64,000 nt of DNA. Origin: Enterococcus phage VRE9_2. The notes below the pieces were generated by a model. That model made no database searches. It was not told the DNA's origin and worked only from the letters and a program-made list of their open reading frames with translations. Below, one piece after another: positions 23,218-32,476 of this stretch. Position numbers and translations under genes: made by a program. Positions within the stretch are counted from its first letter, which is position 1, and each line of letters starts with the position of its first letter. The DNA is taken from the sequence record PP680568.1. One strand, 5' to 3'.

Positions 23218-23293
23218 ACTTGAGTGGTCTTAAAAAGGAAAGACGCATGGTTTAATCTTCCATGAGACGTTGGTTCGAGTCCAACCTCAAGAA
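23218..23293 (+). tRNA. tRNA-like, atypical (A-A mismatch at acceptor 1-72; 9-nt anticodon loop TTTAATCTT); isotype undetermined
   Basis: Acceptor ACTTGAG/CTCAAGA, D-arm GTCT/AGAC, canonical T-arm GTTGG-TTCGAGT-CCAAC; first gene after a promoter. Confidence 0.35.
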
Positions 23294-23295
23294 TA

Positions 23296-23550
23296 TCAGG
23301 ATTGGCTATCCTTTCACCTTATAGCTAGAGGTTGATAAATATAAAGTGGAATTAACCACAGTTGGCTGCTCCCTAGGTTAAAGAAGATACCTATTGGGTC
23401 GGGGCATAAGCTAAGTTAACTAATAAACAACTTCTTTTAGTTAGCTTTTCTCACGAGTGATTGTTGAGGTTCAATTCCTTCTTAACCTATGGGCGGGACA
23501 ACACTCTATCGGAGATAAAAATATATAATTTAGTTTAATATTCTCGAGAA
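23296..23550 (+). ncRNA. Structured non-coding segment within the tRNA cluster (inverted repeats AAGCTAAGTTAACTAA...TTAGTTAGCTT; pseudo T-arm GAGGTTCAATTCC)
   Basis: No ORF; multiple hairpins; position analogous to small stable RNAs in phage tRNA clusters. Confidence 0.25.
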
Positions 23551-23554
23551 TGGT

Positions 23555-23649
23555 TGAGATATGGCGGAAAGGTAGACGCAAGGAGAGTCTCCCCATTGGA
23601 GACCCCTGTGCATGACGATGCAGTGTAGGTTCGAATCCTACTATCTCAG
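23555..23649 (+). tRNA. Type-II tRNA-like (Leu-type D-arm TGGCGGAAAGGTAGACGC, long variable arm); irregular anticodon-arm region, isotype unresolved
   Basis: Acceptor TGAGATA/TATCTCA, T-arm GTAGG-TTCGAAT-CCTAC, variable hairpin TGCAT-GACG-ATGCA; extra nucleotides between D and anticodon arms. Confidence 0.35.
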
Positions 23650-24775: not shown

Positions 24776-24811
24776 TAAAGAATCTTACAGCAAATATTAA
24801 TACTTTTAATA

Positions 24812-24867
24812 ATATTTGGGAAAAAATAAGGTCTAGGTTCGACCCCTAGTATAAGTTTGGTACAACT
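24812..24867 (+). ncRNA. About 56-nt armless tRNA-like element (acceptor + D-like hairpin + canonical T-arm, no anticodon arm)
   Basis: ACTTTTA..TATAAGT acceptor pairing (one T-T), hairpin TATTT-GGGAAA-AAATA, T-arm CTAGG-TTCGACC-CCTAG. Confidence 0.3.
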
Positions 24868-24932
24868 TATATGGTGTAATGGTAGCACACAAAAGATAGA
24901 TTCTTGTTTTTGGGGAAGGTACCTCCCCAGTA
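24846..24932 (+). ncRNA. tRNA-like segment with canonical 5-prime half (acceptor ACTTATA, U8, D-arm GTGT-AATGGTA-GCAC) but non-canonical 3-prime half (GGGGA-AGGTACC-TCCCC hairpin, no matching acceptor strand)
   Basis: Direct reading of sequence; anticodon region CAAAAGATAGATTCTTGTTTTTG does not fold canonically. Confidence 0.25.
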
Positions 24933-24935
24933 TTT

Positions 24936-25019
24936 GGAGGATTATGCAAATTGGTGAAGCAAGTGGTCTGTAAAACCATGACGTAAGATACATTGGGGGT
25001 TCGAATCCCTTGTCCTCCA
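24936..25019 (+). tRNA. tRNA-Tyr (anticodon GTA), type II
   Basis: Acceptor GGAGGAT/GTCCTCC, anticodon arm GTGGT-CTGTAAA-ACCAT, long variable arm, T-arm GGGGG-TTCGAAT-CCCTT (two G-T pairs). Confidence 0.7.
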
Positions 25020-25020
25020 T

Positions 25021-25048
25021 AGACTGCCTTTGTCAAGCAGTCGAATGT
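25021..25048 (+). terminator. Hairpin GACTGC-CTTTGTCAA-GCAGTC after tRNA-Tyr
   Basis: Perfect 6-bp inverted repeat. Confidence 0.35.
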
Positions 25049-25179
25049 AACTAATTTTTTCATTAAATAAATATCAAATTGTGGCTGATTTCTACAGATT
25101 CAGAGCGGAGCATCCCCGCAGGTTGGGCATACTACAGTCCCCCATGACTTTCATGGGTTGCACATAGTTAGGAGGTAGC

Positions 25180-25365
25180 ATGATGTATTTAAAATTCATT
25201 GGTTTAAACGGAAGTTTAGGTTTAGAGAAGGACAAGATATACTTTGTTACCTCTGAGATAACTGAATATTATATTATTTTGAGAATACAGGGTGTTCACG
25301 GTAAGACAGTAATGTGTCCATACGAAACATTAGAAAAAATGTTAGAAAATTGGCAGGTCTGTTAG
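25180..25365 (+). CDS. Hypothetical small protein inside tRNA cluster
   Basis: 61 aa, GGAGG RBS 6 nt upstream. Confidence 0.45.
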   Translation: MMYLKFIGLNGSLGLEKDKIYFVTSEITEYYIILRIQGVHGKTVMCPYETLEKMLENWQVC

Positions 25366-25450
25366 TGTGTAAATAGCAAGGTCTGCATAAAACCTAAGAA
25401 ACAGCACGCACAGAAGATTATGTATTGTCTCCCTTTTGGACAAACATTTT

Positions 25451-25522
25451 GGCGCTATGGTCAAGCGGTTAAGACACTGGTCTTTCTAACCAGAATCCCG
25501 AGTTCGAATCTCGGTAGCGTCA
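25451..25522 (+). tRNA. tRNA with anticodon loop CTTTCTA (anticodon TTC, Glu-like; U at position 37 is atypical)
   Basis: Acceptor GGCGCTA/TAGCGTC, D-arm TGGTCAAGCGGTTAAGACA, anticodon stem CTGGT/ACCAG, T-arm CCGAG-TTCGAAT-CTCGG. Confidence 0.6.
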
Positions 25523-25744
25523 TAAAGAACGATACAGCAAACCTATTAAAATATTACAGAAGAGATTATGTAAGGAGCCGTAGATACCAACCGAAAAATC
25601 TACGAGTTCAATTATGGTTGGCGTTTGAGTTTTTTCTAGGTACTTTCCTTGAGTTACGTTAACACTCGAAAAAGGTCTAAACCTCGTTCTTGATAAATAA
25701 ACACAACTTTCCTTTCTTCCTGTCCATGTCACTGGACAGGTAAC
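25523..25744 (+). ncRNA. Structured spacer: interleaved inverted repeats CGTAGAT..CCAACC..ATCTACG..GGTTGG (pseudoknot-like) and 8-bp hairpin CCTGTCCA..TGGACAGG
   Basis: Direct reading; only spurious overlapping ORFs here. Confidence 0.3.
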
Positions 25745-25830
25745 GCGGGTATGGTGGAATTGGCAGACACATCAGACTTAAGATCTGACGAGAGGTATCT
25801 CTCATGCAGGTTCGACTCCTGCTATCCGTA
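25745..25830 (+). tRNA. tRNA-Leu (anticodon TAA), type II
   Basis: D-arm TGGTGGAATTGGCAGACAC, anticodon arm TCAGA-CTTAAGA-TCTGA, variable hairpin GAGAG..CTCTC, T-arm GCAGG-TTCGACT-CCTGC. Confidence 0.8.
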
Positions 25831-25903
25831 TAAAGAACCTAACAGCAATCACATTTAAAGGGATAATAGTATATCTAATAATATATAGGTTCTTGTTTTT
25901 TAT

Positions 25904-25976
25904 AGCTGGCGGCTGGTTGGATATCAGGGCAGGGTTCATAACCCAGCATAACTCAGTTCGATTCTGAGGCGTAGCA
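25904..25976 (+). pseudogene. tRNA-like with CAT anticodon loop (TTCATAA; Met/Ile2-type) and canonical T-arm but unpairable acceptor stem; possible pseudo-tRNA
   Basis: T-arm CTCAG-TTCGATT-CTGAG, anticodon stem CAGGG/CCCAG (A-A mismatch), 3-prime strand GCGTAGC has no complementary 5-prime strand. Confidence 0.3.
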
Positions 25977-25989
25977 ATATTATTGAGGA

Positions 25990-26158
25990 AGAGCTAACCT
26001 GGCGAAAATATGCTCAGAGGAAAAAACCTGGCGAAAAATTAGCCCCTAGTCAAATTTCCACTTTGGCGGCTAGGTTGAGGCGCACAATAGGCATAAAGAC
26101 ACCTCGTAAAAGGGCAAGCGCAGTGTCCTTACCCAAATAAAACAGCGGCAGCCTTTAC
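25990..26158 (+). ncRNA. Non-coding spacer with direct repeat AACCTGGCGAAAA x2 (25996, 26025) and GC-rich paired segments
   Basis: No ORF; repeats read directly. Confidence 0.25.
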
Positions 26159-26230
26159 GCTGGTTTCGTATAATGGCTATTACAGTTGACTTGTAATCTT
26201 CAAATGGGAGTTCGATTCTCTCAACCAGCA
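26159..26230 (+). tRNA. tRNA-Thr-like (anticodon loop CTTGTAA, anticodon TGT) with imperfect anticodon stem (GTTGA/TCTTC, 2 mismatches)
   Basis: Perfect acceptor GCTGGTT/AACCAGC, D-arm GTA-TAATGGCTAT-TAC, T-arm GGGAG-TTCGATT-CTCTC. Confidence 0.5.
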
Positions 26231-26327
26231 TTTATAAATGAATGAGGCATTGGTTAGGTCTAAAATAGATATAGGGGTATTTAGTTATCTACGGATGCTA
26301 AATATTGTGTAATTCATTTTATTTTTT

Positions 26328-26400
26328 TCGATGATTCGTTCAAATGGATAGGACGCTAGACTACGGATCTAGTAATAGAGGTTCAAGTCCTCTATCATCG
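26328..26400 (+). tRNA. tRNA-Arg (anticodon ACG)
   Basis: Acceptor CGATGAT/ATCATCG, anticodon arm CTAGA-CTACGGA-TCTAG, T-arm AGAGG-TTCAAGT-CCTCT. Confidence 0.75.
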
Positions 26401-26469
26401 GTAGTATAAGGAATGATATTTCGCTTATACGAAACGTTAAGAGATTCTCACACTGACGTCCCAATAGAG

Positions 26470-26510
26470 AAGGGTTTGAATAATCTTCCTTCTCTTGGTT
26501 TTTAATTTAT
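26470..26510 (+). terminator. Rho-independent terminator AGAGAAGG..CCTTCTCT + TGGTTTTT
   Basis: 8-bp stem followed by T-rich tract, between tRNA-Arg and tRNA-Trp. Confidence 0.5.
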
Positions 26511-26581
26511 GCGCTGTTGGTGTAGTGGTATCACATCTGGCTCCAAACCAGAAAATGGGGGTTCGATTCCTTCACGGCGTG
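26511..26581 (+). tRNA. tRNA-Trp (anticodon CCA)
   Basis: Acceptor GCGCTGT/ACGGCGT, anticodon arm TCTGG-CTCCAAA-CCAGA, T-arm GGGGG-TTCGATT-CCTTC. Confidence 0.75.
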
Positions 26582-26702
26582 TTAGTATTTATCCTAATAT
26601 TTATGATACCATGTAGAAGATATAAATAATAGGAAATAGGCTAGTCGTACAGAAAATGCCTATAGCAGCTTTAATAGCTGTCGCTTGATTTTTTAGCTAT
26701 TA

Positions 26703-26773
26703 CACCCCTATAATTTAATGGTAAAATACTGTGCTGATAACGCAGATTCCCTTGTTCGATTCAAGGTAGGGGT
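26703..26773 (+). tRNA. tRNA-Ile (anticodon GAT)
   Basis: Perfect acceptor ACCCCTA/TAGGGGT, D-arm ATTT/AAAT, anticodon arm CTGTG-CTGATAA-CGCAG, T-arm CCTTG-TTCGATT-CAAGG. Confidence 0.75.
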
Positions 26774-26808
26774 ATTTCTCTTTAATAAAAATAGAGGAAG
26801 GTAAAATA

Positions 26809-27300
26809 ATGTTTAGATGTGAAATTTGTGGCAAGGAATTTGACAGTCCCCTTAAACTAGGAGGGCACAAATCCTCTCATTCAAGAGGAAAGAGAAAAGA
26901 CTGCAAAAAAGAAATTAATTGTTTATATTGTAATAAAACTATGACTGTCAATAAATCAGATAAAAAACAATATTGTTCTGTTGAATGTTTTAGAGCTCAA
27001 GTACAAGAAGATAAAAACAATCGTTTTGTTGTAATTAGAAGCGAGAAACATGGCAATCATGTTTTAGACATTACTGTCAAAGAACTAGAAGACTATCGGC
27101 AAAAACAATTAGTTTGTGAGATTTGCGGCAACAAAGAAATCATCAAAAATGGAACTATAAAATTATCAGTCGATCACAACCATGAAACTTATAAATTTAG
27201 AGGTTTGCTATGCTATGCATGTAATGTTAAATTAGCTTGGTTAGAGAAAGAGTGGGATAGCATTAAATCTTACTTAGAAAGAGATAATTTTAAGTTTTAG
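26809..27300 (+). CDS. HNH endonuclease (phage endonuclease VII-like), probable homing/selfish endonuclease at edge of tRNA cluster
   Basis: ..LSVDHNHETYKFRGLLCYACN.. (DH-NH...RGLLC..CN motif) plus N-terminal CxxC pairs. Confidence 0.65.
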   Translation: MFRCEICGKEFDSPLKLGGHKSSHSRGKRKDCKKEINCLYCNKTMTVNKSDKKQYCSVECFRAQVQEDKNNRFVVIRSEKHGNHVLDITVKELEDYRQKQLVCEICGNKEIIKNGTIKLSVDHNHETYKFRGLLCYACNVKLAWLEKEWDSIKSYLERDNFKF

Positions 27301-27394
27301 TATTAATTTTTTTTTATTTAGATAGGAGAGCTTGGATAATATGAAGAAAAGATTAAACAAACTATAAATATCTTATAAAGGAGGTATTTATAAT

Positions 27395-27646
27395 ATGAGT
27401 AGAAGTAGAAAAAAACAACCATATTCAAGATATGTTTGTATGAAGAATTCTTCTGTCAGAAAATCCAAGAAACAAATAAATCGTCTTTATCGAAGAAGAA
27501 TGAAACAAGGTCTATATGATGAAGATGCCAAAATTCCAAGTTTGTATAAAAGACATGTAGACTGGGATTGGGATTATGAAATGATAAAAGGATATTTTCC
27601 TAAAGAAAAGTATCCTGATTTTTATGAAAAACTTATGAGAAAATAA
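27395..27646 (+). CDS. Hypothetical basic protein
   Basis: 83 aa, followed by terminator AAAACTCCCTAAGATAGGGAGTTTTTTATTT. Confidence 0.5.
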   Translation: MSRSRKKQPYSRYVCMKNSSVRKSKKQINRLYRRRMKQGLYDEDAKIPSLYKRHVDWDWDYEMIKGYFPKEKYPDFYEKLMRK

Positions 27647-27736
27647 AACTCCCTAAGATAGGGAGTTTTTTATTTGAAAAATTTAATTTAAAATGATATA
27701 ATTAATTATAAGGACAAATAAAAAGGAGATTCAAAA

Positions 27737-28012
27737 ATGAATAAAAGAGAAAAAATATTTAATAAAGCTAAAAATATTACTGCCAAAACTGAGTTAATTA
27801 GGGGCATAGTGCAAAATCCAATGCTTCCCGAAGAAGTAGATTTAGATGAATTCAAAAAAGAAATTCAACGTATCAAACGAGAATTAACAGATTATCAAAA
27901 TGAAGTTCTCTTATATTTTGCTTCTATTGGGGATGAAGAGAAAGAGAGAATTAAACAAGAACAATTAGAATTATCTGAATACTGGGAACAAAGGTGGGAA
28001 AATATACTATGA
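27737..28012 (+). CDS. Hypothetical protein
   Basis: 91 aa after conserved promoter-leader element. Confidence 0.5.
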   Translation: MNKREKIFNKAKNITAKTELIRGIVQNPMLPEEVDLDEFKKEIQRIKRELTDYQNEVLLYFASIGDEEKERIKQEQLELSEYWEQRWENIL

Positions 28013-28383
28013 AAGTATTTGTAGATGATTTAAGGAAGTGTCCTGAAAGATATGAATTATTTAGGAGCGCAGAAGATTTTCTTGACTGGAGACAGAAAAA
28101 TAATGATACAGAAATTGATATTTTGGCATTGGATCATGACCTAGGAGAAAACTGTTTGAATGGATATGAATTAGTTCAAGAATTAGTAGAATCTACTAGA
28201 ATGGACAATATTAAAACTATTATTTTCCACACAGATAATTTAATTGGTATGAAAAATATGTATTGTTATTTAAGTAATGCCCAAAAGCATGGGATTATTA
28301 GTGAAAATATTGTAATAAACCCAAATAAATATAATTGTTTAGATGGTAAGTTTACTCAAAGTCTATATCGTGTTATTAAATAA
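27994..28383 (+). CDS. Hypothetical protein
   Basis: 129 aa. Confidence 0.45.
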   Translation: MGKYTMKVFVDDLRKCPERYELFRSAEDFLDWRQKNNDTEIDILALDHDLGENCLNGYELVQELVESTRMDNIKTIIFHTDNLIGMKNMYCYLSNAQKHGIISENIVINPNKYNCLDGKFTQSLYRVIK

Positions 28384-28451
28384 TTTGAAATTATTAATAC
28401 AATATATTATAATTATATTATAAGATAAATAAAAGAAAGGAAGTTGTTTAA

Positions 28452-28685
28452 ATGTTGGAAGATGAATTATATGAACAAGGTTTTAATTCTGGATATATTA
28501 GTGCATTACAAAAAATTTCTCATAAACTTGCTATGAAGAAAGAGCCAATTCTTCGAGGTATTCTAGTGGGAGAACTATCTTCCGAAGAAGATTTAGCGAT
28601 ATTAAATACTATTAATGAGATTGAAAAAGTTGTTGAAGAAGAAAAAGAAAATCTTGAAGATGAAGAAAGTTGGTTAGATGAATGA
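28452..28685 (+). CDS. Hypothetical acidic protein
   Basis: 77 aa. Confidence 0.45.
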   Translation: MLEDELYEQGFNSGYISALQKISHKLAMKKEPILRGILVGELSSEEDLAILNTINEIEKVVEEEKENLEDEESWLDE

Positions 28686-28854
28686 AAGTAGGAGACACTG
28701 TTCTTATCCTTAAAGATCTTGAAGATGTTGCTTGTAAAGGGTGTATTGGAGTAATTGAAGAGATAAATATAGTCTTGAATAAAGTGTATTTTGTTTCAAA
28801 AGAAGGCATTGAAATGAATTGTTCTTTTTTTGAAGATGAGTTGGAGGTAATCTA

Positions 28855-29121
28855 ATGGTATTTGTACTTTTATTATTAAATGGAGGAGTTATATTAGCAA
28901 CGATTGGTTTAATTTTTCTTATTATTGCTACAATTTTATCTATTAAGTCAAGTGTTAGAGAAAAATATATCAATATAATTATTAAATTTTATTATATTGC
29001 AGGTATACTTTATATTATTTCAGCCTTTTTCTCTTTCGAAATTTTAACTATATTTTTAAAAGTTTTAGTTGGATTAATATGCTTATATAATGTTTATCTA
29101 ATCAAAAAAAATAAAAATTGA
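28855..29121 (+). CDS. Small membrane protein
   Basis: 88 aa, three hydrophobic segments. Confidence 0.45.
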   Translation: MVFVLLLLNGGVILATIGLIFLIIATILSIKSSVREKYINIIIKFYYIAGILYIISAFFSFEILTIFLKVLVGLICLYNVYLIKKNKN

Positions 29122-29182
29122 CTTTTTTAGCATAACATGTTATAATATTTATATAAGTTAGGAAGAAAAAACTTCCTAATAT

Positions 29183-29254
29183 GTCGCTATAGTGTAATGG
29201 ATAGCACAAGAAACTTCTAATTTCTAAGTTTAGGTTCGAGTCCTAATAGCGATG
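29183..29254 (+). tRNA. tRNA-Arg (anticodon TCT)
   Basis: Acceptor GTCGCTA/TAGCGAT, D-arm GTGT-AATGGATA-GCAC, anticodon arm AGAAA-CTTCTAA-TTTCT, T-arm TTAGG-TTCGAGT-CCTAA. Confidence 0.8.
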
Positions 29255-29259
29255 TTCAC

Positions 29260-29335
29260 AGTAGAATAGCTTATGTTTGGTTAAAGCACTCACCTTATAA
29301 GTGAGAGAGCGTGGGTTCGAACCCCACTTCTACTA
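29260..29335 (+). tRNA. tRNA-Ile (anticodon TAT), unusual UAU anticodon
   Basis: Perfect acceptor AGTAGAA/TTCTACT, D-arm GCTT/AAGC, anticodon arm CTCAC-CTTATAA-GTGAG, T-arm GTGGG-TTCGAAC-CCCAC. Confidence 0.7.
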
Positions 29336-29369
29336 TAAAGAATAAATAATGAAAGGAGAATCTCAAAAA

Positions 29370-29492
29370 ATGGAAGAAACATTAGATCGTGCAATAGAAT
29401 TATTAGAAGAAGCAGAAGATTTATTGAATAATGTTCATGCCTATGATAGCGACACATATAATTCTATTTGTGAATTTTTAGACTCTTTATAA
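29370..29492 (+). CDS. Small acidic ORF (40 aa) between tRNAs
   Basis: ATG 8 nt after GAAAGGAG; MEETLDRAIELLEEAEDLLNNVHAYDSDTYNSICEFLDSL. Confidence 0.35.
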   Translation: MEETLDRAIELLEEAEDLLNNVHAYDSDTYNSICEFLDSL

Positions 29493-29546
29493 TTAGGACA
29501 AAATGTCTTAAAGTATATGTAAATTATTTTAAAGACTTATACAGGT

Positions 29547-29602
29547 GCGAAATTAATTCAATAGGTAGAATTATTTAGATGGGTTCAAATCCCATATTTC
29601 GC
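29547..29602 (+). ncRNA. 56-nt armless tRNA-like element (perfect 7-bp acceptor GCGAAAT/ATTTCGC, D-arm ATTC-AATAGGTA-GAAT, T-arm ATGGG-TTCAAAT-CCCAT, no anticodon arm)
   Basis: Direct reading; only 7 nt (TATTTAG) between D- and T-arms; followed by the conserved AAAGAATCTTACAGCAAATAT trailer. Confidence 0.4.
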
Positions 29603-29717
29603 TTAGGTAAAGAATCTTACAGCAAATATCATATGTTTAATAGGCTAATTCAAATATATTATATAAGATTCTTGAAGTTATTTTTAGCCGATTAAGAGAT
29701 AAAGGAGATAAATAACT

Positions 29718-31214
29718 ATGACATTTTTAGATAATTTGAAAGAGGAAGCAACAGTTGGACGCACTTTCAATGGTGCAACTACTTATACTACTTCATTAAA
29801 TGCTAATGTTGATCTTTTTGCATTAGGTGGGTCTATGCGATACCAAAATGTTGGAGACAAGATTTCATTATTTGAAAAAGCATATAATGAAGACAGAGCT
29901 GTTGCATTGAGAAACCTAGTTTATATGCGAGATATTCGTAATGGTGGACTGGGTGAAAGAGCTATGTTCCACGCAGGAATTTGGTTCTTAGCTAAAAAGA
30001 AAGATGAAAAAGCACTTCATGTTATCATGAATAATGTAGCTGATTTTAGTCGTTGGGATGATCTATTTTTCATTATGAAACAAGATGAAAAATTGTTTGA
30101 TTATGGATTAATCATCATCAAAACTCAGCTTTTGGAAGATATGGACAATATGCGAAAAGGTAAAGAAATTTCTTTATTAGGGAAATGGCTACCTAATATT
30201 AATGCCAAAAGTGAAGAACGAAGAGCTTTTGGTCTTAGAGTTGCTAATGCTTTAGGATATACTAAACCTAGTGACTATAAGGTCTACCGAAAAATGTTAG
30301 TTAGATTAAGAGAAAAATTAGATTTAGTAGAAGTAAAATTAGCTGCTAAAGATTATGATTCAATTGATTTTTCTAAATTACCTTCTAGAGCAGGATTCAA
30401 GTATCGCTCAGCATTTTGGCGCCATATTTCAGATCGTTATTCTGAATTTTTAGAAGCTGTGAATAACGGCGAAGCTACAATGAATGGAAATTTGGTAATG
30501 CCAGATGAAATTATTGGAGCTTATGGATATCGGAGTTGTATTTCTTATGAAGAACAACCTGAATTAGAAGCTGCATGGAAATCTCTAAAAGATACTGTTA
30601 AGGGTTCTGACGAGAATGTAATTGTAGTTGCAGATACTTCTGCTTCTATGTGGGGTAAACCATGGGAAGTAGCAGAAGGTTTAGCAATTTATACTGCTGA
30701 ACGCTTAGAAGGACCATTCAAGAATAATTTTATCACTTTCTCTAGACGCCCACAATTGGTAACTCTACCAAGTAATTGTTCCTTACGAGATAAAATGAAC
30801 GAATATTCTCGTCATTCTATTATCGAAAACACAGATATTGAAGCAGTATTTAATCTTATTTTAGATACTGCTATCAAGAATAACACTCCAAAAGAAGAAG
30901 TTCCATCTAAAATTATCATTGTTTCAGATATGGAATTTGATCTTCAACGAGGAAATGACGTTACACATTTCAAACTTGCAAAATCTCGTTTTGAGGACGC
31001 TGGTTATGAAATGCCAGATGTAATCTTTTGGAATGTAGAAGCTAGATTAGGAAACTTGCCTGTTCGTTACAATGAACAGGGAGCAGCATTAGTATCTGGA
31101 TTCAGTACAAATATTCTAACTTCTATTTTGAATGGAAAATTAGAAACTCCAGAATCTATGATGTTAGAAACGTTGTCCAATCCAGCATTTGACTTCATTG
31201 ATGAAGCTATCTAA
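29718..31214 (+). CDS. DUF2828-like / von Willebrand factor A-like domain protein (TROVE/Ro-like family candidate)
   Basis: 498 aa; C-terminal ..VVADTSASMWGKP.. (DxSxS MIDAS-like) and overall resemblance to DUF2828 phage proteins. Confidence 0.5.
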   Translation: MTFLDNLKEEATVGRTFNGATTYTTSLNANVDLFALGGSMRYQNVGDKISLFEKAYNEDRAVALRNLVYMRDIRNGGLGERAMFHAGIWFLAKKKDEKALHVIMNNVADFSRWDDLFFIMKQDEKLFDYGLIIIKTQLLEDMDNMRKGKEISLLGKWLPNINAKSEERRAFGLRVANALGYTKPSDYKVYRKMLVRLREKLDLVEVKLAAKDYDSIDFSKLPSRAGFKYRSAFWRHISDRYSEFLEAVNNGEATMNGNLVMPDEIIGAYGYRSCISYEEQPELEAAWKSLKDTVKGSDENVIVVADTSASMWGKPWEVAEGLAIYTAERLEGPFKNNFITFSRRPQLVTLPSNCSLRDKMNEYSRHSIIENTDIEAVFNLILDTAIKNNTPKEEVPSKIIIVSDMEFDLQRGNDVTHFKLAKSRFEDAGYEMPDVIFWNVEARLGNLPVRYNEQGAALVSGFSTNILTSILNGKLETPESMMLETLSNPAFDFIDEAI

Positions 31215-31542: not shown

Positions 31543-31839
31543 ATGGACAAAGAAAAAATTAAAGAATCTTGGAACTATTGTTTAGCCCAAAGTATTGGAG
31601 TTAGAAAATTAGCTTCTAAAAATGAAGCTATTAGAAAAGATAGTTTAGAAAAAAACATTGCTACTAAAACTGCCTTAGAAGTTTTAAAAGAGCAATTAAA
31701 TGTTTTAATTGAGATGCTGGAGAAAATTGATTTAGAAGAAGAACTTCTCTTAACTTGTCAAGAGAAAGCTGCGGTAGAGTATCTTATTGAAGTATATGAA
31801 AATCTTATTATTGTGAAAGAGGGGGAGCAACTTGACTAA
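31543..31839 (+). CDS. Hypothetical protein
   Basis: 98 aa. Confidence 0.5.
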   Translation: MDKEKIKESWNYCLAQSIGVRKLASKNEAIRKDSLEKNIATKTALEVLKEQLNVLIEMLEKIDLEEELLLTCQEKAAVEYLIEVYENLIIVKEGEQLD

Positions 31840-32476
31840 ATTTATTACAAGTGATTGGCATTTCTTTCATAATAATGCTTGTGGTCCAGAAGGATTCATT
31901 TCTACTAGAAAAAAGTTTTCCTCTGTAGAAGAGATGAACGATAATATTATTAAAACTATTAATCAAAAGGTTGGTAGAGATGATACTATTATTCATTTAG
32001 GAGATATTGGTTTTGGGAAACCTAAAAAATTGTTTGAAACATTAGAAAAAATCAATGGACAAATTATTTTAATTAAGGGAAATCATGATAGTTCAAAATT
32101 ATTTAAGTATATTGTAAATAATAATTATCATTATCCATATAGTAATCCTAAAAAACGTAAACAATCTCCTGACCGAGTTAAATTTTTAGTTGAAGAAGTT
32201 GGTTTAAGGGAAAAAATGAATGGTAAGGTTTACTATTTAACTCATTACCCATTTCAGTTAGGAGAACAACGTAAAAATATGCGTTCAATTTGTGGACATA
32301 TTCATGAGCAGATTGCTCCTGAGGCTAATATGATTAACGTAGGTATTGATTCTCCTGAAATTGCTTCAAAGATTTCTAATTTTGGAGAACCTCTTCTTCT
32401 GGAAGATGCAATAGAATTAGTTGATAAAAAATGGGAAAAATGGTATAATGATACTATAAGAATTTTGGGAAGTTAA
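31832..32476 (+). CDS. Calcineurin-like metallophosphoesterase
   Basis: SDWHFFH, LGDIGFG, GNHD motifs. Confidence 0.65.
   Translation: MTKFITSDWHFFHNNACGPEGFISTRKKFSSVEEMNDNIIKTINQKVGRDDTIIHLGDIGFGKPKKLFETLEKINGQIILIKGNHDSSKLFKYIVNNNYHYPYSNPKKRKQSPDRVKFLVEEVGLREKMNGKVYYLTHYPFQLGEQRKNMRSICGHIHEQIAPEANMINVGIDSPEIASKISNFGEPLLLEDAIELVDKKWEKWYNDTIRILGS

What the first reader, a model, noticed from the sequence alone, without database searches (positions are those of the whole stretch)
29547..29602. Two roughly 56-nt armless tRNA-like elements (acceptor + D hairpin + T-arm, no anticodon arm)
At 29547-29602 a perfect 7-bp acceptor (GCGAAAT/ATTTCGC), a D-arm (ATTC-AATAGGTA-GAAT) and a canonical T-arm (ATGGG-TTCAAAT-CCCAT) are separated by only 7 nt where the anticodon arm should be. 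A second element with the same architecture sits at 24812-24867. Both lie next to the conserved AAAGAATCTTACAGCAAATAT motif. They could be tRNA-derived minihelices used as processing, CCA-adding or decoy substrates, or remnants of deletions.
Basis: seen in the sequence. Interest (0 to 1): 0.6.

Follow-up and report, generated by a model that had tools for sequence, protein, structure and literature searches.

The report
Anticodon-less tRNA mimic beside phage Y-like RNAs
An Enterococcus phage carries a real, conserved 57-base tRNA look-alike with no anticodon arm; it sits beside small RNAs and a Ro60-like protein gene that together resemble the bacterial Ro/Y-RNA system, so it is most likely a tRNA-mimic or processing module of that system and not a decoding tRNA.

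Summary
Element 1 (29547-29603) is real. It has a 7-bp acceptor stem, a D-arm and a canonical T-arm, with 7 nt where the 17-nt anticodon arm should be. Rfam tRNA scores it 42 bits and the fold z-score is -3.2. It looks like tRNA-Gly (G1-C72, C2-G71, G3-C70, U73). Across seven near-identical phages it is invariant except for one D-loop base, while the 66 nt upstream carry 14 variable sites.

The "second element" is mis-parsed. Positions 24812-24867 are the middle of a 130-nt RNA (24777-24906) with a circularly permuted tRNA-like domain, as in YrlA-type Y RNAs.

The "conserved motif" is the 5' stem strand plus an ACAGCAA box. These define a large family of small RNAs clustered next to DUF2828/vWA genes in phages: 396 boxes on the gene strand against 33 on the other. 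The AlphaFold model of that protein (29718-31214) matches Ro60 best.

The window has four such units. Three follow true tRNAs and the fourth follows the armless element.

Best reading: a tRNA-Gly-derived mimic, cut out by RNase P and RNase Z. This would define the 5' end of the neighbouring Y-like RNA and release a non-decoding tRNA-like RNA. Expression and function are untested. The element is lineage-specific and dispensable.

The parts
29547..29603 (+). Anticodon-arm-less tRNA-like element: acceptor 29547-53/29596-602, U8 A9, D-arm 29556-59/29568-71 with A14, G18 G19 and A21, 7-nt linker 29572-78, T-arm 29579-83/29591-95 with loop TTCAAAT, discriminator T 29603, no encoded CCA
   Evidence: Rfam tRNA 42.1 bits, anticodon arm deleted; z -3.24; 0 hits in shuffles; tRNA-Gly-like; 1 variable site in 57 nt against 14 in 66 nt upstream, p 7e-4
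29531..29546 (+). Unit-like 5' sequence AAAGACTTATACAGGT abutting the element. It could pair weakly with 29611-18, and it varies among relatives.
   Evidence: AAAGANNNNTACAG: 4 hits, 0.3 expected; the other 3 are unit starts; outer stem in the fold; variable positions 29533, 29536, 29545, 29546
29609..29676 (+). Minimal Y-like unit 4: stem AAGAATCTT 29610-18 / AAGATTCTT 29665-73, ACAGCAA box 29619-25, G at 29674. It lies 6 nt after the armless element and 41 nt before the Ro60-like gene.
   Evidence: z -2.92; invariant in 7 relatives; the same unit position is kept in L092 and L095
29718..31214 (+). Gene for a 498-aa DUF2828 + DUF7788 (vWA) protein with a Ro60-like fold
   Evidence: Pfam; AF2 pLDDT 88.8; top four full-length PDB matches are Ro60/TROVE structures 1yvr, 9nfa, 9kop, 2nvo; 694 phage records, some annotated 'Ro-like RNA binding protein'
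24777..24906 (+). It starts 2 nt after tRNA-Ser.
   Evidence: MFE fold; same layout as the GVEsP-1 units, which hit Rfam YrlA at 47.8 and 35.8 bits
25524..25693 (+). Y-like unit 2 (stem AAGAACGA / TCGTTCTT, ACAGCAA 25534-40), directly after tRNA-Glu
25832..25895 (+). Minimal Y-like unit 3 (stem AAGAACCTA / TAGGTTCTT, ACAGCAA 25842-48), directly after tRNA-Leu
29118..29146 (+). Sigma-70-like promoter match (TTGACT-17-TATAAT with TG) upstream of tRNA-Arg, tRNA-Ile, the armless element, unit 4 and the Ro60-like gene. No terminator-like site lies between them.
   Evidence: consensus match only

Best explanation
The 57-nt element is a tRNA-Gly-like gene that has lost its whole anticodon stem-loop. 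It keeps everything needed to fold into the tRNA elbow plus the acceptor/T minihelix.

It belongs to a phage locus that works like a Ro60/Y-RNA system. The locus has a Ro60-like (DUF2828-vWA) protein gene and, just upstream and interspersed with tRNA genes, small RNAs built from a terminal stem plus an ACAGCAA box. Binding of the protein to that box is inferred by association.

In many phages these RNAs carry a tRNA-like module. In some it is permuted (YrlA type). In others it is linear, with the box-bearing hairpin in place of the anticodon arm. In this lineage the tRNA-like module and the box module lie side by side.

Most likely the element is transcribed with its neighbours and excised by host RNase P at its 5' end and RNase Z at its 3' end. 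The three real tRNAs that precede the other units would be processed the same way. Excision would create the 5' end of the downstream Y-like RNA and of the Ro60-like mRNA leader. It would also release a CCA-tailed tRNA mimic of about 57-60 nt that cannot decode.

Shown: the anatomy, the genomic context, family-wide enrichment, the Ro60-like fold and local sequence constraint.
Inferred: transcription, cleavage, CCA addition, protein binding and any role of the released RNA.
For: - Anatomy and non-chance status.
- tRNA-Gly resemblance: the best of 390 phage tRNAs scores 28 against a median of 6, with the same ATTC/GAAT D-stem, G1-C72, C2-G71, G3-C70 and U73. No tRNA-Gly is found among the window's tRNAs.
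- All four units in the window follow a tRNA or this element within 1-7 nt.
- Family-wide, 21 of 213 units have a tRNA 3' end 0-12 nt upstream, against 2.6 expected.
- The ACAGCAA box occurs 396 times on the gene strand and 33 times on the other strand in 645 kb around DUF2828 genes.
- Stems of at least 8 bp occur at 36% of boxes against 7% of random positions, and most units lie within 500 nt of the gene.
- Stems covary between phages: AGGAATC/GATTCCT, AGAGAGC/GCTCTCT, AGACAC/GTGTCT, TGAGCGC/GCGCTCA.
- 75 linear tRNA-form RNAs were found in 46 loci, and there are YrlA-type units with sub-threshold Rfam YrlA hits.
- An independent anticodon-arm-less tRNA-like RNA of 63 nt lies 15 nt before a unit in L021. 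It scores 62 bits with my model, though a linker-trimmed copy of this sequence was one of the three used to build that model, so the score is partly by construction; the independent detection is the descriptor scan.
- The protein has a Ro60-like fold.
- Sequence variation stops exactly at base 1 of the element: 14/66 variable sites upstream (including -1 and -2), 1/57 inside, 0/117 downstream; p = 7e-4.
- A co-directional promoter match lies upstream with no terminator in between.
Against: - There are no expression or processing data.
- The element is confined to one closely related lineage.
- It is absent from relatives whose protein is 56-63% identical, although they keep the unit and the gene.
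- Phage VRE9_4 has lost the element together with 4.8 kb, so it is not essential.
- Most units elsewhere are not preceded by a tRNA-like handle.
- Conservation among genomes 96-98% identical is weak evidence, and the sharp boundary could be a recombination breakpoint.
- The spacer to the unit is 6 nt, against 1-2 nt after the true tRNAs.
- No TROVE Pfam hit. Ro60 likeness rests on a predicted structure with TM about 0.5-0.6.
Confidence: 0.5

Rival explanations
1. Inert relic. A phage tRNA-Gly gene lost its anticodon arm by a 16-17-nt deletion. The remnant persists only because the lineage is young. Any processing is incidental and no function is selected.
For: Resemblance to tRNA-Gly, with a linker of the length expected after a clean excision of the arm. 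Lineage-restricted. Absent in relatives at 56-63% protein identity. Lost in VRE9_4 without loss of viability. The cluster holds other odd tRNA-likes at 23218-23293 and 23555-23649.
Against: One variable site in 57 nt against 14 in the adjacent 66 nt, with the boundary exactly at base 1. All stems are still perfect and all tertiary-contact bases are intact. An independent analogue sits next to units in L021 (its 62-bit score is partly by construction, since a trimmed copy of it was in the model's seed alignment).
Confidence: 0.25
2. Stand-alone tRNA mimic acting in trans. After excision and CCA addition, the RNA binds a tRNA-recognising factor such as GlyRS, the CCA-adding enzyme, TruB, an acceptor-end toxin or an RNA-repair enzyme. 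It would act as a decoy or cofactor, possibly as the separate 'effector half' of a split Y RNA working with the Ro60-like RNP.
For: It keeps the elbow and the Gly-type acceptor identity set. tRNA-like modules are a recurrent part of this RNA family, and YrlA tRNA-like domains are substrates of tRNA enzymes (PMC4201824). Local constraint is present.
Against: No partner has been identified. No RtcB or other RNA ligase was seen among the window proteins scanned. The element is dispensable and lineage-specific. Charging of Gly minihelices is recalled from the literature and was not tested here.
Confidence: 0.15
3. Internal domain of a fifth Y-like unit (about 29531-29618). The 5' sequence AAAGACTTAT-ACAG and the 3' strand AGAATCTT would enclose a linear tRNA-like domain, as in L078 1392-1487.
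For: AAAGANNNNTACAG has 4 hits in the window against 0.3 expected, and the fourth hit abuts the element. An outer stem appears in the fold of 29528-29620, z -2.5. L078 gives a precedent for a unit that encloses an acceptor plus T-arm module.
Against: The box is ACAGGTG, not ACAGCAA. The upstream sequence varies among relatives, including the AAAGA and the two bases after ACAG. The putative 3' strand is also the 5' strand of the better-paired unit 4 (9 bp).
Confidence: 0.1

Closest known systems
YrlA-type bacterial and phage Y RNAs with their Ro60 (Rsr) partner (Chen et al. 2014, PMC4201824; Rfam RF02553)
   Same: Small RNAs encoded next to, and on the same strand as, a Ro60-fold protein gene. 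There are several per locus. At least one has a domain mimicking the tRNA T-arm, D-arm and acceptor stem. M. smegmatis YrlA is cut by RNase P and receives CCA. Window unit 1 has the V-T-AS-D order inside a terminal stem. Related phage units hit RF02553 below threshold.
   Different: The protein is DUF2828/DUF7788, not Pfam TROVE. The box is ACAGCAA, not GNCGAAN0-1G. The armless element itself is linear, not permuted. It is not enclosed by the protein-binding stem and is a separate module. RF02553 gives no hit in the window.
Canonical tRNA-Gly and acceptor-T-arm minihelices
   Same: 7-bp acceptor stem with G1-C72, C2-G71, G3-C70 and U73. D-arm and T-arm carry all the elbow-forming bases. The Rfam tRNA score is above the gathering threshold. 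From general knowledge, minihelices are substrates of RNase P, RNase Z, the CCA-adding enzyme and some synthetases.
   Different: There is no anticodon stem-loop at all, so it cannot decode. Unlike a bare minihelix it retains a D-arm.
tRNA-like processing signals: MALAT1 mascRNA, MHV68 tRNA-like/pre-miRNA units, tRNA-snoRNA dicistrons, phage T4 species 1 and 2 RNAs in the tRNA cluster (all recalled from the literature, not tested here)
   Same: A tRNA-shaped module within a longer transcript recruits RNase P and/or RNase Z. One cut makes the end of the adjoining functional RNA, and a small tRNA-like by-product is released.
   Different: Those examples have at least a vestigial anticodon arm. 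None is linked to a Ro60-like RNP. Processing here is only inferred.
Dictyostelium Class I RNAs (Rfam RF01414; Kjellin et al. 2021, PMC7919456). Relevant to the adjacent motif units, not to the armless element.
   Same: RNAs of about 60 nt with a short stem joining the 5' and 3' ends. An 11-nt box CCUUACAGCAA lies right after the 5' strand, followed by a variable interior and a 3' CUGU. The window motif UCUUACAGCAA and two Listeria phage P100 units are the only Rfam matches in three small scans, at 18.1, 23.1 and 19.1 bits; the P100 matches are end to end.
   Different: All scores are below the gathering score of 41.5. Class I RNAs are reported as unique to dictyostelids with an RRM-protein partner. 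Whether dictyostelids have a DUF2828 protein was not determined.
Armless mitochondrial tRNAs of nematodes and mites (recalled)
   Same: Miniaturised tRNA genes of about 45-60 nt.
   Different: Those lose the D- and/or T-arm but keep the anticodon arm and still decode. This element does the opposite.

Membership tests
tRNA (RF00005) | 7-bp acceptor stem plus discriminator | tested here: met
   GCGAAAT/ATTTCGC is perfect, with discriminator T at 29603
tRNA (RF00005) | D-arm and T-arm with conserved elbow bases (U8, A14, G18 G19, A21, T54 T55 C56, A58) | tested here: met
tRNA (RF00005) | Anticodon stem (5 bp) and 7-nt loop | tested here: not met
   Only 7 nt lie between the D- and T-arms. The Rfam alignment deletes 17 model positions. 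ARAGORN makes no call.
tRNA (RF00005) | Score at or above the Rfam gathering score (29 bits) | tested here: met
   42.1 bits in the 281-nt scan. It was missed by the filters in the 12-kb scan.
YrlA / bacterial Y RNA (RF02553) | Encoded within about 4 kb of, and on the same strand as, a Ro60 (TROVE-vWA) gene | tested here: inconclusive
   115 nt upstream on the same strand. The protein hits DUF2828/DUF7788, not TROVE. Its AF2 model best matches Ro60 structures at TM 0.40-0.59.
YrlA / bacterial Y RNA (RF02553) | tRNA-like domain in the order T-arm, capped acceptor-like stem, D-arm, enclosed by the stem formed by the RNA's 5' and 3' ends | tested here: not met
   The armless element is linear (acceptor, D, T, acceptor). 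The feature is met by window unit 1 at 24777-24906.
YrlA / bacterial Y RNA (RF02553) | GNCGAAN0-1G box in the 5' strand region | tested here: not met
   The units carry NNACAGCAA instead
YrlA / bacterial Y RNA (RF02553) | Covariance-model score at or above the gathering score (69 bits) | tested here: not met
   No hit in the window at E<=10. Related phage units score 25-48 bits.
YrlA / bacterial Y RNA (RF02553) | Bound by the Ro60 protein | not testable with these tools
   Needs RIP or EMSA
Dictyostelium Class I RNA (RF01414), for the flanking motif units | Terminal stem, 11-nt box after the 5' strand, and score at or above the gathering score (41.5 bits) | tested here: not met
   The architecture matches, but scores are 18.1 bits (window) and 23.1 and 19.1 bits (P100)
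tRNA-like end-processing signal (mascRNA / MHV68 type) | Cleavage by RNase P at the 5' end and RNase Z at the 3' end that generates the end of the adjoining RNA | not testable with these tools
   Supported only by position: 6 nt before unit 4, with true tRNAs in the same place before units 1-3

The most novel reading that the evidence does not exclude
The phage has split a tRNA-mimicking Y RNA into two adjacent genes. One is a free, CCA-tailed and possibly glycine-chargeable tRNA-Gly minihelix-with-elbow. The other is a separate hairpin that binds the Ro60-like protein.

More broadly, the stem+ACAGCAA RNAs next to DUF2828 genes exist in three circular permutations (minimal, YrlA-type and tRNA-form). 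They may be the same RNA class as the 'dictyostelid-only' Class I RNAs. That would give those orphan eukaryotic RNAs a Ro60-like partner and a link to phages and bacteria.
Probability: 0.15. Interest if true: 0.8.

Novelty: new variant of a known kind. Interest (0 to 1): 0.55.

Why it matters
If the reading is right, phage tRNA clusters hide a second class of genes that annotation pipelines miss or mislabel. These are tRNA mimics and Y-like RNAs serving a Ro60-like protein that is present in hundreds of phages, including Felix O1-like, Listeria P100-like, Staphylococcus, Vibrio, Campylobacter and mycobacteriophages.

The anticodon-less element is a naturally minimised tRNA. It keeps exactly the parts needed for end-processing and elbow recognition. 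That makes it a clean probe for what the tRNA-like modules of Y RNAs are for.

The same box-plus-stem design in Dictyostelium Class I RNAs offers a testable lead on RNAs whose function has been open for twenty years.

Tried and rejected
- A 12-kb Rfam scan missed the element because of the filters. A 281-nt scan found it.
- For element 2 I considered a permuted or split tRNA gene of the kind that needs splicing. I dropped this in favour of the YrlA-type layout once the enclosing stem and the homologous units in GVEsP-1 and L092 were seen.
- I suspected self-cleaving ribozymes in the ~50-nt repeated elements before each GVEsP-1 unit. Rfam gave no hit there.
- MAFFT misaligned the short tRNA-likes. 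I therefore built the model from an alignment in which the L021 linker was trimmed to 7 nt, as a search device only. That model found no further armless elements above about 23 bits, but it did reveal the 110-130-nt tRNA-form class.
- Relaxed descriptor scans mostly re-found pieces of ordinary tRNAs.
- Scans of IMG/VR and of metagenomes for the element's core found only the same lineage, so no covariation test of its stems was possible.
It was redone with database homologues.
- Burroughs & Aravind 2016 and Sim et al. 2020 are not in the held library. The supplements of Chen 2014 are not held either.
- A 'DUF2828' literature search returned only plant and tardigrade papers.
- No RtcB or other RNA ligase was found among 20 window proteins scanned.
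- Sequence search against PDB chains gave nothing for the protein. Only the fold search showed Ro60 likeness.

Full report
**Where the window comes from.** The window is 96-98% identical to Enterococcus phages VRE9_3, H1 and EF1/EF5. The region from 23.2 to 32.6 kb is a co-directional tRNA cluster. ARAGORN tRNAs there, and Rfam adds two non-standard tRNA-like hits.

**Observation, element 1.** The sequence at 29547-29603 reads GCGAAAT TA ATTC AATAGGTA GAAT TATTTAG ATGGG TTCAAAT CCCAT ATTTCGC T.
- All stems are perfect.
- U8, A14, G18 G19, A21, T54 T55 C56 and A58 are all present.
- Only 7 nt lie where N26, a 17-nt anticodon arm and a 5-nt variable loop are expected.
- ARAGORN ignores it, and it is not annotated in VRE9_3.
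- In a short scan the Rfam tRNA model gives 42.1 bits (gathering score 29) with the anticodon arm deleted.
- The MFE fold is the expected one, at 52% of the ensemble and z = -3.24.
- A strict descriptor found nothing in shuffles of 645 kb.

**Observation, element 2.** The stretch 24812-24867 does not have the same architecture. It holds a good T-arm (24833-49). The 3' acceptor-like strand TATAAGT pairs perfectly with ACTTATA downstream (24865-71), forming a capped hairpin. A D-arm follows (GTGT AATGGTA GCAC, 24874-88).

This order is 5' strand, box, V hairpin, T-arm, capped acceptor-like stem, D-arm, 3' strand. It is the layout of YrlA-type Y RNAs (Chen et al. 2014, PMC4201824). Units with the same layout in Enterococcus phage GVEsP-1 hit Rfam YrlA at 47.8 and 35.8 bits, below the gathering score of 69. 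The window unit itself gives no YrlA hit.

**What the motif is.** AAAGAATCTTACAGCAAATAT occurs only at 24777 and 29609. Downstream of the second copy lies AAGATTCTT (29665-73), which gives a 65-nt hairpin unit. Two more units follow tRNA-Glu (25524-25693) and tRNA-Leu (25832-25895).

The common plan is a terminal stem, 1-2 nt, ACAGCAA(A/T), a variable interior, the 3' strand, then G(T). The same plan fills the 600-700-nt unannotated gaps next to the homologous gene in several distant phages:
- GVEsP-1, Listeria phage P100 and Bacillus phage Thrax2, upstream of the gene;
- mycobacteriophage Wyatt2, downstream of the gene.

The stems differ but stay complementary, for example AGGAATC/GATTCCT, AGAGAGC/GCTCTCT, AGACAC/GTGTCT and TGAGCGC/GCGCTCA.

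In 92 sources totalling 645 kb:
- ACAGCAA occurs 396 times on the gene strand and 33 times on the other strand.
- Stems of at least 8 bp occur at 36% of boxes against 7% of random positions.
- The median unit length is 65 nt.
- Most units lie within 500 nt upstream of the gene.

**The neighbouring gene.** ORF 29718-31214 (498 aa) hits DUF2828 and DUF7788, with a weak vWA match. It has homologues in 694 phage records, some annotated 'Ro-like RNA binding protein'. Sequence search against PDB chains found nothing. An AlphaFold model (pLDDT 88.8) has Ro60/TROVE structures as its four best full-length PDB matches: 1yvr, 9nfa, 9kop (the Thermus phage Ro60) and 2nvo, with E from 5e-7 to 9e-5 and TM up to 0.59. 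Isolated vWA domains come next.

By analogy with Ro60 and its Y RNAs, the stem+ACAGCAA RNAs are the likely partners of this protein. This is inference by association.

**tRNA-like modules recur in this RNA family, in several topologies.**
- The YrlA-type form, described above.
- A linear 'tRNA-form' of 110-140 nt. It has a 7-bp acceptor stem, a D-arm and a T-arm, with a hairpin-NN-ACAGCAA-variable segment in place of the anticodon arm. I found 75 of these in 46 loci. ARAGORN does not call them, but Rfam tRNA scores them 43-58 bits. Topologically they are circular permutations of the YrlA-type units.
- Units that enclose an acceptor plus T-arm module (L078, L055, L066).
- One more anticodon-arm-less tRNA-like RNA, L021 2120-2183. 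It is 63 nt with a 14-nt linker and lies 15 nt before a unit, right after a tRNA-form RNA. Its 62.4 bits with my model is partly by construction, because a linker-trimmed copy of it was one of the three seed sequences.

The window element is thus the tRNA-like module without a box insert, placed beside a box-only unit.

**Origin.** Among 390 phage tRNAs, the closest to its two halves are tRNA-Gly genes (score 28 against a median of 6). They share the D-stem ATTC/GAAT and a GCG... acceptor. The element has G1-C72, C2-G71, G3-C70 and U73, which I recall as the bacterial glycine acceptor identity set. No tRNA-Gly is called in the window. A phage tRNA-Gly that lost its anticodon arm is the simplest origin.

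**Constraint and distribution.** I aligned seven sequences from this lineage: the window, VRE9_3, H1, EF1, one IMG/VR contig and two metagenome contigs. Variable sites number 14 in the 66 nt upstream, including positions -1 and -2. There is 1 in the 57-nt element, a T/C at D-loop position 29562. There are 0 in the 117 nt through unit 4 to the start codon. Fisher p = 7e-4 for the upstream stretch against the element.

Against a deep function:
- The element is found only in this lineage.
- Relatives whose protein is 56-63% identical keep the unit and the gene but have a YrlA-type unit, a CDS or a hairpin in its place.
- VRE9_4 has deleted everything between the two motif copies, joining tRNA-Ser directly to unit 4.

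**Mechanism.** A promoter-like site at 29118-46 precedes tRNA-Arg, tRNA-Ile, the element, unit 4 and the gene, with no terminator-like site in between. In the window, every unit starts 1-7 nt after a tRNA or after this element. Family-wide, tRNA 3' ends lie just upstream of units eight times more often than expected, 21 against 2.6.

None of these tRNAs encodes CCA. In Firmicutes such precursors are cut by RNase Z after the discriminator. From established knowledge, RNase P and RNase Z need only the acceptor/T minihelix and the elbow. The element keeps exactly these parts.

I therefore favour excision by RNase P and RNase Z. This would define the 5' end of unit 4 and of the mRNA leader, and would release a non-decoding tRNA mimic. 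All of these steps are inferred.

**Rivals.**
- An inert relic.
- A trans-acting mimic or decoy.
- Membership in a degenerate fifth unit. AAAGACTTATACAG at 29531 is a fourth hit of a pattern otherwise specific to unit starts, but this stretch varies among relatives.

**Comparison with known systems and novelty.** The system works like Ro60/YrlA but fails YrlA membership on three counts: the box sequence, the covariance-model score and, for the element itself, the topology. In the library searched I found no description of DUF2828-associated ACAGCAA RNAs or of anticodon-less tRNA mimics in phages. I rate it a new variant of a known kind.

**A side lead.** In three small Rfam scans the only matches of these units were to Dictyostelium Class I RNA, at 18.1, 23.1 and 19.1 bits. 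The two Listeria phage P100 hits were end to end. The published description of that family is a terminal stem, the box CCUUACAGCAA after the 5' strand, a length of about 60 nt and a 3' CUGU. This is the plan of the phage units. All scores are below threshold, and the presence of a DUF2828 protein in dictyostelids was not checked.

Noticed in passing
window 24777-24906, 25524-25693, 25832-25895, 29609-29676: Four small-RNA units (terminal stem plus ACAGCAA box), each starting 1-7 nt after a tRNA or tRNA-like gene. None is annotated in the related phage records. The family is about 10-fold strand-enriched around DUF2828 genes in about 90 phage loci.
   Followed up: yes
e.g. L015 1618-1733, L027 2075-2188, L039 4086-4198, L021 1992-2112 (75 cases in 46 loci): RNAs of 110-140 nt in a 'tRNA-form': normal acceptor stem, D-arm and T-arm, but the anticodon arm is replaced by a hairpin-NN-ACAGCAA-variable insert. 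ARAGORN does not call them, while Rfam tRNA scores them 43-58 bits. They are circular permutations of YrlA-type units. Some related records or scans label such RNAs tmRNA: L003 1649-1763, L048 1885-2006, and the iF6 and CCS1 annotations (hits H6 and H7).
   Followed up: partly
window 24783-24830; L006 (Listeria phage P100) 2654-2709 and 2742-2797: The only Rfam matches of these units are to Dictyostelium Class I RNA (RF01414), at 18.1, 23.1 and 19.1 bits against a gathering score of 41.5. They share the terminal stem, the CUUACAGCAA box, a length of about 60 nt and a 3' CUG(U). This could be homology or convergence. I did not check whether dictyostelids have a DUF2828 protein.
   Followed up: partly
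window 24798-29629 versus L011 (phage VRE9_4): VRE9_4 lacks the 4.8 kb between the two identical 21-nt motif copies. The missing segment holds ten tRNAs, units 1-3, the armless element, an HNH/EndoVII gene and a cREC gene. This is consistent with recombination between the repeats.
   Followed up: partly
L005 (GVEsP-1) about 2385-2444, 2572-2626, 2760-2808; L093 about 60-110: A repeated structured element of about 50 nt (GGTTTTG, hairpin, TAG, stem, hairpin, GCC, stem, AT), with covarying stems, immediately precedes each unit. It occupies the position where the window has a tRNA or the armless element. There is no Rfam match and its function is unknown; it may be another processing signal.
   Followed up: no
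window 23218-23293 and 23555-23649: Two more non-standard tRNA-like genes that ARAGORN does not call. One has a 9-nt anticodon loop (Rfam tRNA 41.8 bits). The other has 38 nt in place of the 17-nt anticodon arm (38.5 bits).
   Followed up: partly
window 23294-23530; L005 1212-1460; L013 553-800: A larger conserved structured region begins (T)AGGATTGG..ATCC right after a tRNA or short tRNA-like gene. In GVEsP-1 it includes a T-arm and a weak YrlA hit (28.4 bits).
   Followed up: no
L006 (Listeria phage P100) 1459-2010: A ROOL-like RNA (Rfam RF03087, 86 bits, E 5e-16, just under the gathering score of 99.1) lies within the same tRNA/Y-like RNA cluster.
   Followed up: no
window 27994-28383, 26809-27300, 31832-32476: Three genes are interspersed in the tRNA cluster: a cREC_REC protein (cyclic-phosphate processing receiver domain), a zinc-finger/endonuclease VII protein and a metallophosphoesterase. 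They hint at an RNA-repair or RNA-end-processing context. No RtcB or RNA ligase was found among the proteins scanned.
   Followed up: partly
L013 487-552; L054 4114-4181; L066 973-1027: Further truncated tRNA-likes occur near DUF2828 genes: a 66-68-nt form with a 3-bp stub instead of an anticodon arm, and a D-arm-less form inside a unit.
   Followed up: no
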